A DNA stretch of 64,000 nt from the NCBI RefSeq assembly GCF_051903065.1, contig NZ_CP178439.1. One strand, written 5' to 3'. The position numbers were made by a program. Shown one piece after another: positions 37,001 through 40,000 of the stretch. Within the stretch, counting starts at the first letter, position 1; each line of letters opens with the position of its first letter. Source of the stretch: Escherichia coli (GTDB lineage Bacteria; Pseudomonadota; Gammaproteobacteria; Enterobacterales; Enterobacteriaceae).

Positions 37001-40000
37001 GACGTCATCGTCTGCGCGGAAATGGACGAACAGTGGGGATACGTCGGGGCTAAATCGCGCCAGCGCTGGCTGTTTTACGCGTATGACAGGCTCCGGAAGA
37101 CGGTTGTTGCGCACGTATTCGGTGAACGCACTATGGCGACGCTGGGGCGTCTTATGAGCCTGCTGTCACCCTTTGACGTGGTGATATGGATGACGGATGG
37201 CTGGCCGCTGTATGAATCCCGCCTGAAGGGAAAGCTGCACGTAATCAGCAAGCGATATACGCAGCGAATTGAGCGGCATAACCTGAATCTGAGGCAGCAC
37301 CTGGCACGGCTGGGACGGAAGTCGCTGTCGTTCTCAAAATCGGTGGAGCTGCATGACAAAGTCATCGGGCATTATCTGAACATAAAACACTATCAATAAG
37401 TTGGAGTCATTACCGGAGAATTGTATCATTAACAGTCTAGTTCTAACGACTACCACTTTTAAGTATGTATTGAGCCAGTTTTATATTCAGGCACACCATA
37501 TTGCACTCTAGCTCTTTCATCATTCTTGAAGAACTCTTAATTAAGTATTCTTCAAGTGGGCCAGCATATGCCCCTGATGTCACGATCGTTAGTTGCGTAA
37601 GAGGATGAGTCAAACTCTCAATGCCCTTCAGGATGTCATTCTGGACAGCAGCAATATAAACAGGCGAAGCCGCAATCAAATATTCATCATTCGGGCTGGA
37701 CTGCATTAACTGGCTTATAGTTGCGCAACGGTTATGCTTACCTAGTGATTTTGTGATGGCTTTCCACCAGAGATCATGCCTGAATGGTACTTGATGAAAT
37801 GTCGCCTCGTAAGAGGGCACCCGATCTCGACTATTTAAAAACCCCATCCCGGCAGAGATTATCCACAACTCCAGATTTCTGGTTGAGTTTAAAATTTCCT
37901 TTGCCGTAGACCAGTGATTACCTGAATACAAGGACAATGCCGGTACCGCCTGATTACTTCTGGCGTCGTCTACAATGTTACTCCAGGCATATGCTGCGTC
38001 GTCCGGGGTTTGTTTTGGATCTATGTCCAATGTCGGCCAGACGTGGCCCTGATGATTCTTGCCCTTTGTACAGGAAGTGATTAAGTGTACTGAGCGTTCA
38101 GAGAACATTATCTTCCTTACATACCCATAGAACAGCTTTCTAAGAACGGTGGGCTCGCCTGAAAATTACAAATCAGCCCCTTTCACGGCATCATTTTGAT
38201 TCTTCGCGTCTGCCCCCAGTAAGATGACCGGTTTTCTGCATGACAGTGTTATTCCTAACAAACGCAACACAAAACCACGCCAGCCAGAGCAAATTTTTTC
38301 ATTTGCTGCGTAAAGCCTATTGTTTTCTCTTTTAAGCTTCGCCCACTCGTTACAGAGGGTAACATCATCAAGCGCTGTTATATGCTTCGCCTCACCTTCG
38401 ACGATAACGGTATGGATACCGTATGCTGTAAATCTCATACTATTTTCCAGAACCCAGTTGCGGTATTCGTCGAGTCCACCTTCGGAACCGGTAGCTCTGC
38501 GCCACATTTCAATTTGCTTGTGTGATGGGTCAAGTGTACTTGTCATTGAAGCCTCGTCTCAGCGATAACGCTTGAAATAGCCCGCTTTGGTCATCATGAA
38601 ATTAGCCATCTGACTGGCGATTTGATTGTATCTTACTCATAGTGCCCTACCTATAGGTTAAAAAGGGGCATTTTCGCTTTATAGCGTGTTCAGCAGCATC
38701 AATCCTCCCAAGAAAGGCTGGCTTATTAAGCCGGTCCATCATTTTCTGTATATCTCTCATCAATTTTTATATCCGCCCTGGAGTGCACCGTTCAAGCACA
38801 CCGATTAGGCAGATAGTCACTAGTTAACTCTTTACTAGTGACTAAATTCCATTGATATACGTGACAACGTCACGTCATGAAAGCTTATAAATGCCTATTT
38901 TTCATACAATGGGATTTAATTAGGAGTAAATCCCATAGGCTTACATAAGGATGACAATTAAAAGCGTTAAATATCAACCAGATAGAATGATTACCCCCAA
39001 TTAATGGGCTCATCACATTATTTCACTGGCTGGGGTTATTGCTGGCATATCTGAAAGTGCTAATATGTTAGTCATTAGTAATTAGTAAAGCCTTTACTAA
39101 ACGCGTTTCTACGTAAATTCTATAGGTTTTATAGTGTCCTACCTTTGCTCAAATCAAAATGTTCTGACATACCAAAATGGAGTGTAAAATGACTCAAAAC
39201 CAGGGTTCTGAGCCAGTACCGGCGAGCCGGACAGGGCAGCTCATCAGCGCCCGGGATATGGCCATGCAGAAATTCGAAGAAGGGATGCGGTTAATCTCGG
39301 AAGCGTCGGAACTGTGCGGTCTCTCTCTCTTCACCAGCAGAATTATGCAGCCCAACGCATTTGGTCTTCCGTCGTCACTGGATCGCACCATCGAGGAGGG
39401 GCGTAAGGAAATTGACCGTAAAACGTGGAAAAGGCTCTTTGAAGAAACAGGTATGGACCGGTACTGGAACCATAAGCAAAAAGAAGCCTTTAACGAATCC
39501 CTTCGTACGGATCCGCCCGTCGCTTCCCTGGAGATTGTTAAGGGAACATTACAGCATGCACTGGCTAACAGACGAGACACCCTTGCAGAAGGTTTCGTTG
39601 ATGTTCTCAACAAGCTTGACCGAAGTTTCAAAAGCAATGCCAGGCAATATACAATGCCAAAAAAGCTTGTTCTTCGGGGGATTTTTCCTGGTGTGAACGT
39701 GCTGAGGTACAACGGTTTCTCGCAGGACAATCACTTTTGTTTACGCGACTTTGAGAATATTGTATGCATCTGTTCTGATACTCCAACACCTGCAACCGGC
39801 GGTGGGCTGAGTATGGTCGACAGGCTGACGGCCATGAGAAATACAGAATTCACAGGCGAGGTCAGTGATGAGAATGGCTGGCGGTGTCGCCTGTTTGAGA
39901 ATGGAAACGTTCATATTTGCATCGACAGTATCTCGCTTCTGAATGCTCTGAACGATCTTATCAGCATATATTTTGCAAACCAGCTTCCGGCCGCAGGAAA

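What the first reader, a model, noticed from the sequence alone, without database searches (positions are those of the whole stretch)
37443..38546. Two co-directional unknown genes adjacent to IS1 and upstream of the palindrome-rich region
A 221-aa and a 126-aa ORF separated by 57 bp form a likely operon reading out of the regulatory region; neither matched a family I could recognise. Two-gene plasmid cassettes of this size are often stability or defence modules.
Basis: inference. Interest (0 to 1): 0.35.

Follow-up and report, generated by a model that had tools for sequence, protein, structure and literature searches.

The report
Orphan short DpdC on IncHI2 plasmid
The two "unknown" genes are not a matched pair: the larger one is a shortened, stand-alone copy of DpdC, an enzyme that edits an unusual modified DNA base. 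It is carried without its normal partner genes by about 3,000 resistance plasmids, and the smaller gene is an unrelated, common small plasmid protein.

Summary
Both ORFs exist exactly as described (126 aa and 221 aa, minus strand, 57 bp apart, next to IS1). They are conserved IncHI2 backbone genes.

The 221-aa ORF belongs to a known family. It is a DUF6884/YaaA-fold protein, 38-41 % identical to DpdC of a canonical dpd island. DpdC converts preQ0-DNA to ADG-DNA. The ORF keeps the family's conserved motifs and is under purifying selection. It belongs to a distinct short clade that lacks DpdC's C-terminal domain. DpdA/DpdB are absent from the window and occur on only 27 of 72,556 plasmids, none seen in IncHI-type records. 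Homologs of the short form occur on 2,991 plasmids, including IncHI1, IncHI2, pOXA-48 and Klebsiella MOBH plasmids.

The 126-aa ORF is a real gene of an unnamed family of small plasmid proteins (IncI "YaeB"-like). It is absent from IncHI1 and half-deleted in one IncHI2-like lineage, so the pair is not an obligate cassette.

In this window an IS26/IS1-bounded resistance region has removed the downstream genes and truncated hns.

Most likely function: an orphan enzyme acting on 7-deazaguanine-modified DNA made by hosts or phages. This is inferred, not shown.

The parts
37443..38108 (-). ORF-B, 221 aa: stand-alone short DpdC-like protein (DUF6884, YaaA-like fold)
38109..38165 (-). 57-bp spacer carrying ORF-B's ribosome-binding site (AAGGAAG at 38112-38118)
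   Evidence: Read. 55 of 57 bases identical in the divergent L002. No terminator-like site.
38166..38546 (-). ORF-A, 126 aa: small plasmid protein of an unnamed family (IncI 'YaeB'-like core, residues ~37-105) with a ~36-aa N-terminal extension
   Evidence: tblastn hits in 3,427 plasmid records, about 2,400 of them at under 60 % identity. Alignment shows conserved GI[HN]TV / KHIT-LD / EW-KL-EN--LY / GWRG--LR motifs. Profile search finds 264 clusters with no Pfam domain. The extension is conserved at 55 % identity in P0197. Core pN/pS 0.28-0.35. Structure model poor, pLDDT 61.
38595..38700 (-). Near-invariant leader block upstream of ORF-A, containing a 12-codon mini-ORF (MSKIQSNRQSDG, 38602-38640)
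   Evidence: 94-100 % identical in all five IncHI2-type loci. It is retained in L018, where ORF-A's 5' end is deleted, and absent from IncHI1.
38814..39099 (.). Palindromic motifs of the divergent regulatory region: 38814-38844, 38859-38875, 38909-38936 and 39068-39099
   Evidence: Inverted repeats I3 and I7, and the related pair I1/I2. TTACTAGTGACTA-like sites occur 4 times against 0.55 expected. All four motif types are conserved between IncHI2 and IncHI1.
36647..37414 (+). IS1, the right boundary of a ~36-kb resistance region that cut the gene string 28 bp past ORF-B's stop codon
   Evidence: IS1 terminal inverted repeats at 36647 and 37392-37414. Backbone homology to L002 resumes at 37411.
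44662..45216 (+). Thermonuclease (SNase) gene, a recurrent companion of short DpdC genes on other plasmids (not in the finding's coordinates)
   Evidence: 36-51 % identical to SNase genes next to or near short DpdC genes in L011, L013, L015 and L020.

Best explanation
**ORF-B.** It encodes a stand-alone, C-terminally shortened paralog of DpdC. DpdC is the DUF6884/YaaA-fold enzyme of the Dpd system that hydrates 7-cyano-7-deazaguanine (preQ0) already present in DNA to 7-amido-7-deazaguanine (ADG). ORF-B is a conserved backbone gene of IncHI2 plasmids. It belongs to a monophyletic short clade found on about 3,000 mostly conjugative enterobacterial plasmids that lack DpdA/DpdB, the enzymes that insert preQ0.

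**Most likely mechanism (inferred).** ORF-B keeps the DpdC active site (the Cys-x3-Lys and SAGxG motifs, and conserved Tyr/Trp/His/Asp residues). It would act on 7-deazaguanine-modified DNA made by another party: a host dpd island, or a phage with preQ0-DNA. That would let the plasmid complete or rewrite this epigenetic mark for its own benefit.

**ORF-A.** It is an unrelated small plasmid protein of unknown function. It is co-transcribed with ORF-B in IncHI2 only.

**Shown versus inferred.** Shown: homology, fold, motif retention, purifying selection, orphan status, distribution, and the non-obligate pairing. Inferred: catalytic activity, substrate and biological role.
For: **Identity**
- PADLOC DpdC E 4e-59 and Pfam DUF6884.
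- 38-41 % identity over the whole of ORF-B to P0058, which lies in an integrase-DpdC-DpdA(TGT)-DpdB(DndB)-SNF2-DEAD island.
- DpdC is a DUF6884 protein, and it acts independently of DpdA/B on preQ0-DNA.

**Active site and fold**
- The CxxxK and LSAxxG motifs named by Pfam are present.
- 28 of 30 positions conserved at >=80 % are kept. K17, W42, Y61, S85, Y100, W115 and Y151 are invariant.

**Selection:** pN/pS 0.10-0.29.

**Clade:** 28 short forms are monophyletic and sister to nine long DpdCs.

**Orphan status**
- No DpdA/B in the window.
- DpdA on 27 plasmids, against ORF-B homologs on 2,991.

**Possible substrates:** natural preQ0-DNA exists in enterobacterial settings, namely dpd islands in E. 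coli/Salmonella and coliphage CAjan with ~32 % of G modified.
Against: - No biochemical or genetic data exist for any short-clade member.
- The short clade lacks the ~90-aa C-terminal domain present in canonical DpdCs.
- It replaces a mostly conserved Arg (position 38) with Ala, and fixes a Glu next to invariant Tyr100.
- Its core is on average less positively charged than that of long DpdCs: +0.2 against +4.2, p 1.4e-5, not corrected for phylogeny. Its DNA binding or substrate may therefore differ.
- An enzyme whose substrate must be supplied by another element has no obvious benefit in most hosts.
- In pOXA-48 functional-genomic screens no phenotype was reported for the homolog orf21.
Confidence: 0.5

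Rival explanations
1. ORF-B shares ancestry and fold with DpdC but has changed job. It may act on a different substrate: free preQ0 or another nitrile, a different flipped base, or a damaged site as proposed for YfjM. Alternatively it may be a non-catalytic DNA- or protein-binding factor of the plasmid's H-NS/nuclease neighbourhood.
For: - Loss of the C-terminal domain, and clade-specific R38A and E101.
- Lower core charge.
- Total absence of DpdA/B from carrier plasmids.
- DUF6884 is a broad family with members proposed to act in DNA repair.
- Recurrent linkage to SNase, H-NS and DUF1173 genes rather than to queuosine/preQ0 genes.
Against: - Nearly all DpdC-conserved residues are retained.
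- The clade's closest relatives are bona fide DpdCs in dpd islands, not generic DUF6884 proteins: 198 bits to the DpdC model against 30 bits to Pfam DUF6884.
Confidence: 0.3
2. Anti-phage variant of the same chemistry: the plasmid enzyme converts the protective dPreQ0 of infecting phages (CAjan-like, or intermediates of dG+ phages) to dADG. This would sabotage the phage's anti-restriction modification and benefit the host and plasmid.
For: - DpdC acts on preQ0-DNA without partner proteins.
- Coliphages carry up to ~32 % dPreQ0.
- A DUF6884 model is listed among PADLOC's phage-defence candidates (PDC-M57A).
- The carrier plasmids share hosts with such phages.
Against: Purely inferential. It is not known that dADG protects less than dPreQ0. 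No phenotype data exist. No close homolog occurs in phage genomes that would suggest an arms race.
Confidence: 0.12
3. One reading: ORF-A and ORF-B form a two-gene toxin-antitoxin, stability or defence cassette.
For: Small, co-directional, closely spaced genes on a plasmid, downstream of a palindrome-rich region.
Against: - The pairing is not conserved: IncHI1 lacks ORF-A, and L018 has ORF-A half-deleted with ORF-B intact.
- ORF-A relatives occur alone on IncI and F plasmids.
- ORF-B relatives have other neighbours.
- No match to any TA family.
Confidence: 0.03

Closest known systems
DpdC of the Dpd 7-deazaguanine restriction-modification system (Salmonella Montevideo type; represented here by P0058 in loci L005-L007)
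   Same: Same DUF6884/YaaA-like catalytic domain. 38-41 % identity across all of ORF-B. Same CxxxK and SAGxG motifs and almost all conserved residues. Sister clades in the tree.
   Different: ORF-B is 221 aa, not ~318. It lacks the C-terminal ~90-aa helical domain with the ACEQxRF-type motif. It is not linked to dpdA/dpdB or to restriction genes. It is plasmid-borne. It carries clade-specific A38 and E101 and has a lower net charge.
pOXA-48 orf21 (WP_015059994.1), downstream of orf19-orf20 (DNDJGHEP_0013/_0014)
   Same: Member of the same short DpdC clade, 40 % identical, same motifs including YEATF. An orphan on a conjugative resistance plasmid.
   Different: Preceded by a 395-aa RHH-like protein and by the XRE regulator orf20, which is essential for plasmid maintenance. 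It is not preceded by an ORF-A homolog. No function has been reported for orf21 itself.
E. coli YaaA (PDB 5caj, DUF328) and B. subtilis YfjM (DUF6884)
   Different: Only 13 % identity to YaaA. YaaA is linked to the peroxide-stress response, and YfjM is proposed to recognise DNA lesions. Neither is known to act on 7-deazaguanines.
IncI-plasmid 'YaeB'-like small proteins (84-88 aa; e.g. UAD64778.1, WP_004152108.1), relatives of ORF-A
   Same: Conserved core motifs, 44-56 % identity over ORF-A residues ~37-105. Found on plasmids among strings of small genes.
   Different: ORF-A has an extra ~36-aa N-terminal segment, shared only with a few relatives such as P0197. No member has a known function or a Pfam family.

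Membership tests
DpdC (modification enzyme of the Dpd system) | DUF6884/YaaA-like catalytic domain with CxxxK and LSAxxG motifs | tested here: met
DpdC (modification enzyme of the Dpd system) | Specific sequence similarity to DpdCs from verified dpd islands | tested here: met
   PADLOC DpdC model E 4e-59. 38-41 % identity to P0058, which is encoded beside DpdA and DpdB. Sister clade in the NJ tree.
DpdC (modification enzyme of the Dpd system) | Full-length architecture (~300-325 aa) including the conserved C-terminal domain | tested here: not met
   The match stops at model position 233 of 319. ORF-B and 27 relatives are 198-261 aa. The C-terminal domain is not found in the window or in downstream genes of intact backbones.
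DpdC (modification enzyme of the Dpd system) | Genomic linkage to dpdA and dpdB | tested here: not met
   No DpdA/B in the window or in L001-L004. DpdA is on 27 of 72,556 plasmids, only one of them enterobacterial and a 108-kb record. ORF-B homologs are on 2,991.
DpdC (modification enzyme of the Dpd system) | Converts dPreQ0 in DNA to dADG | not testable with these tools
   Needs LC-MS/MS of DNA nucleosides, as in PMC10164549.
Type II toxin-antitoxin or other obligate two-gene plasmid cassette | Conserved pairing of the two genes across lineages | tested here: not met
   ORF-A is absent in IncHI1 and half-deleted in L018. The two families occur independently on other plasmids.
Type II toxin-antitoxin or other obligate two-gene plasmid cassette | Similarity of either protein to known toxin or antitoxin families | tested here: not met
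   No such hits in Pfam, PADLOC, NCBIfam or PHROGs.
Unnamed 'YaeB-like' small plasmid protein family (ORF-A) | Conserved ~70-residue core with GI[HN]TV, KHIT-LD, EW-KL-EN--LY and GWRG--LR motifs | tested here: met
   Alignment A4. 264 clusters by profile search. tblastn in about 2,400 further plasmids.

The most novel reading that the evidence does not exclude
Conjugative resistance plasmids of Enterobacterales (IncHI1, IncHI2, IncL/pOXA-48, Klebsiella MOBH plasmids) carry a dedicated, partner-less DpdC derivative that takes part in 7-deazaguanine 'epigenetic warfare'. It would finish or rewrite preQ0 marks made by host Dpd systems or by phages. The effect could be to help the plasmid pass Dpd restriction, or to strip phages of their protective modification. 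This would be the first example of a mobile element carrying only the second-step enzyme of a hypermodification pathway as an offensive or defensive tool.
Probability: 0.2. Interest if true: 0.75.

Novelty: new variant of a known kind. Interest (0 to 1): 0.45.

Why it matters
IncHI2, IncHI1 and pOXA-48 plasmids are major carriers of mcr, ESBL and carbapenemase genes. ORF-B is annotated as "hypothetical protein" in nearly all the records seen here.

Recognising it as an orphan DpdC derivative links about 4 % of sequenced plasmids to the 7-deazaguanine DNA-modification world, which until now has been described only for chromosomal dpd islands and phages. It also gives a directly testable hypothesis: a simple LC-MS assay on preQ0-modified DNA.

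If the enzyme is active, it raises the question of why plasmids keep only the second step of a two-step DNA hypermodification pathway. It would also bear on barriers to plasmid spread and on phage therapy against plasmid-bearing strains.

If it is inactive on preQ0-DNA, it defines a new functional branch of the DUF6884 fold.

Tried and rejected
1. **Truncation by IS1: rejected.** Homologs at 40-60 % identity are also ~221 aa, and the stop codon lies 28 bp before IS1.
2. **Split gene, with DpdC's C-terminal domain encoded by the next gene: rejected.** p151 (lipoprotein-like), p146 (membrane) and IncHI1 p90 show no similarity to it, or to each other.
3. **DpdA/DpdB elsewhere in the window or on IncHI plasmids: not found**.
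4. **My own interim conclusion that ORF-A is an IncHI2-restricted ORFan with doubtful coding status**: overturned by translated and profile searches. The word-indexed search had missed the family.
5. **Fold inference for ORF-A: abandoned.** The model has pLDDT 61.
7. **Rfam scan of 37300-39300:** only a sub-threshold Hammerhead_HH9 hit (22 bits against 52), taken as chance.
8. **Sigma-70 consensus scan:** no promoter found in 37300-39300, so the promoter remains unmapped.
9. **Close phage homologs:** none by tblastn, only remote fold matches.
10. **Literature:** no paper mentions these protein accessions or stand-alone plasmid DpdCs.

Full report
**Observation.** The window has a 221-aa ORF (ORF-B, 37443..38108) and a 126-aa ORF (ORF-A, 38166..38546). 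Both are on the minus strand and are separated by exactly 57 bp. Each is preceded by a Shine-Dalgarno-like sequence, and no terminator-like site lies between them. IS1 occupies 36647..37414, ending 28 bp past ORF-B's stop codon. Upstream lies a 630-bp intergenic region with several palindromes, shared with a divergently transcribed DUF4942 gene. The description is therefore accurate.

**Where the locus comes from.** The 1.3-kb stretch is >=99 % identical in 915 plasmid records from Escherichia, Salmonella, Enterobacter and Klebsiella. Most of these are 200-350-kb conjugative plasmids typed IncHI2/MOBH. In an intact backbone (Raoultella p104922-NR, L002) the minus-strand order is ORF-A, ORF-B, a 151-aa lipoprotein-like gene, a 146-aa membrane-protein gene, then the plasmid H-NS gene. 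On the other side lie DUF4942, a coiled-coil protein, DUF1173, a Dcm-type methyltransferase and a thermonuclease.

In the present window, backbone homology runs from 37411 to 46124, and again from 1 to 1048. The 1.4 kb between these in L002 (5' hns, p146, p151) has been replaced by a ~36-kb IS26/IS1-bounded resistance region. The "two-gene" appearance is thus partly an artefact of that rearrangement.

**ORF-B identity.**
- It scores E 4e-59 against PADLOC's DpdC model PDLC02818 (model positions 3-233 of 319). It just passes Pfam's DUF6884 threshold, 30.4 against 30 bits.
- Pfam's authors describe DUF6884 as having CxxxK and LSAxxG motifs and a YaaA-like "cantaloupe" fold with a DNA-binding cleft. 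ORF-B has C13-TKG-K17 and I84-SAGMG89.
- DpdC is a DUF6884 protein. [quoted passage not shown]
- An exhaustive HMMER search found 817 relatives in two length classes: ~210-245 aa and ~300-325 aa.
- The closest long relative is P0058 (318 aa, 38-41 % identical over all of ORF-B). It lies in a textbook dpd island: integrase, DpdC, DpdA (TGT), DpdB (DndB), then SNF2 and DEAD helicases.
- ORF-B retains 28 of 30 positions conserved at >=80 % in 145 family members. The two differences are conservative. Seven positions are invariant in a 103-sequence alignment.
- Comparison with three diverged lineages gives pN/pS of 0.10-0.29.

ORF-B is therefore a real, constrained gene with an apparently intact DpdC-type catalytic domain.

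**How ORF-B differs from DpdC.**
- The 28 short sequences form one clade in a neighbour-joining tree. Its sister is nine long DpdCs including P0058.
- The short clade lacks the ~90-residue C-terminal domain that is conserved in long DpdCs.
- That domain is not encoded by the downstream genes of intact backbones, nor elsewhere in the window. The split-gene idea is rejected.
- The short clade has Ala where 68 % of long forms have Arg (position 38). It has an invariant Glu next to invariant Tyr100.
- Its core carries less positive charge: mean +0.2 against +4.2, p 1.4e-5, not corrected for phylogeny.
- DpdA and DpdB are absent from the window. DpdA occurs on only 27 of 72,556 plasmids, one of them enterobacterial.
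- tblastn finds ORF-B homologs on 2,991 plasmids, 85 % of them conjugative. These include IncHI1 pHCM1, pOXA-48 and Klebsiella MOBH/IncFIB plasmids, where some copies are annotated "tgtA5 cluster protein 2".

ORF-B is thus a member of an orphan, plasmid-borne DpdC derivative clade. I found no description of this clade in the searchable literature.

**Neighbourhoods of the short clade.** No obligate partner emerges.
- IncHI1 has ORF-B's homolog followed by an unrelated 90-aa gene and hns, and no ORF-A.
- In two IncFII-rep lineages the order is a ~400-aa protein, then short DpdC, then SNase, with 4-bp overlaps.
- In a MOBF plasmid the neighbours are SNase, umuDC and H-NS.
- In Klebsiella MOBH plasmids the neighbours are DUF1173, SNase and H-NS.
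- In pOXA-48 the gene (orf21) follows orf19 and the XRE regulator orf20.
- The SNase genes are true homologs (36-51 % identity) of the IncHI thermonuclease at 44662..45216. There is thus a loose but recurrent association with SNase and H-NS.
- Two 2025 studies show that pOXA-48 orf20 is essential for plasmid maintenance. They report nothing for orf21. That is context, not evidence of function.

**ORF-A.** A word-indexed search found only relatives at >=76 % identity, and whole-gene substitution counts looked weakly constrained. I first took ORF-A for a doubtful ORFan. Translated and profile searches overturned that view.
- Its core (residues ~37-105) is 44-56 % identical to 84-88-aa proteins on about 2,400 IncI, F-type and other plasmids.
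- The family has at least 264 clusters, no Pfam domain, and one source name, "YaeB protein".
- Core pN/pS is 0.28-0.35.
- The 36-residue N-terminal extension is less constrained, but it is conserved at protein level in a 120-aa relative.
- The structure model is poor, and the function is unknown.
- ORF-A is dispensable for ORF-B. IncHI1 lacks it. In an E. ludwigii IncHI2-like plasmid a ~200-bp deletion removes its start and first ~49 codons, and the rest is frameshifted, while ORF-B is intact at 90 % identity. ORF-A relatives on IncI and F plasmids have no DpdC-like neighbour.

**Regulatory region.**
- No consensus sigma-70 promoter was found.
- A ~100-nt block just upstream of ORF-A (38595-38700), including a 12-codon mini-ORF, is 94-100 % identical in all IncHI2-type loci. 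It survives the deletion in L018.
- Four palindromic motifs further upstream are conserved between IncHI2 and IncHI1. They probably serve as operators for the divergent promoters.
- ORF-A and its leader block look like an IncHI2-specific insertion between that conserved control region and the DpdC-like gene.

**Interpretation.**
- Identity of ORF-B as a short, orphan DpdC derivative is near certain.
- Its activity is inferred. The retained active site and its closeness to true DpdCs favour hydration of preQ0 in DNA to ADG, about 50 % likely. The substrate would be DNA marked by a host dpd island or by a phage with preQ0-DNA.
- The lost C-terminal domain, the clade-specific substitutions and the lower charge leave substantial room for a changed substrate or role, about 30 %.
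- The biological purpose remains open. It could be evasion of Dpd restriction, sabotage of phage modification, or something tied to the H-NS/nuclease neighbourhood.
- The toxin-antitoxin or two-gene-cassette reading is essentially refuted by synteny.

**Verdict.** This is a new variant of a known kind, of moderate interest: ordinary as a plasmid backbone locus, but the orphan DpdC clade on about 4 % of sequenced plasmids is unreported, clinically widespread and easy to test.

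Noticed in passing
window 1-1048 and 1048-37414: The plasmid H-NS gene is truncated: only its 3' ~284 bp remain, at ~765-1048, cut by an IS26 end at 1048. 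A ~36-kb IS26/IS1-bounded multiresistance region has replaced 1.4 kb of backbone (5' hns, p146, p151). The window holds nine IS26 copies. Loss of the plasmid 'stealth' H-NS may affect this plasmid's fitness cost.
   Followed up: partly
window 38595-38700 (mini-ORF 38602-38640, minus strand): A ~100-nt block upstream of ORF-A is more conserved than ORF-A itself: 94-100 % identical in five IncHI2-type loci, and kept in L018 where ORF-A's 5' end is deleted. It encodes a 12-codon mini-ORF, MSKIQSNRQSDG. It could be a leader peptide, a 5'-UTR element or a small RNA. There is no Rfam match.
   Followed up: partly
window 38814-38844, 38859-38875, 38909-38936, 39068-39099; L004 ~9700-10060: Four palindromic motifs in the divergent ORF-A / DUF4942 regulatory region are conserved between IncHI2 and IncHI1, although the flanking sequence has diverged. 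The motifs are TAGTCACTAGT..ACTAGTGACTA and a related copy, CGTGACnnnGTCACG, and ATGGGATTTA-n8-TAAATCCCAT. They are likely operator sites for an unidentified regulator.
   Followed up: partly
window 44662-45216; L011 8073-8546; L013 7678-8172; L015 1826-2332; L020 2961-3455: A signal-peptide-bearing SNase/thermonuclease gene co-occurs with short DpdC genes in at least five plasmid lineages. It is adjacent or overlapping in three of them and a few kb away in IncHI and Klebsiella MOBH plasmids. H-NS and DUF1173 genes are often present too.
   Followed up: partly
L019 (pOXA-48) 5520-7678; L013 5787-7004; L015 2-1108: In pOXA-48 the short DpdC gene (orf21) overlaps by 4 bp the XRE regulator orf20, which two 2025 studies found essential for plasmid maintenance. 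The ~400-aa proteins upstream of short DpdC in pOXA-48, L013 and L015 share a repeated 'FGFTxxQA' motif and an N-terminal DNA-binding-like segment, although BLAST finds no significant similarity between them. It has not been tested whether derepression of orf21 contributes to the lethality of the orf20 deletion.
   Followed up: partly
L004 (pHCM1) 10098-10964: The DUF4942 gene of this IncHI1 pHCM1 record is split into two ORFs (169 aa and 116 aa) and is not annotated. It is apparently a frameshifted pseudogene, whereas it is intact in IncHI2 (window 39177-40007).
   Followed up: no
window 39202-39266 (minus strand): Weak Rfam hit to Hammerhead_HH9 (22.1 bits against a gathering score of 52, E 0.019), inside the 5' end of the DUF4942 coding sequence. 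Most likely chance.
   Followed up: no
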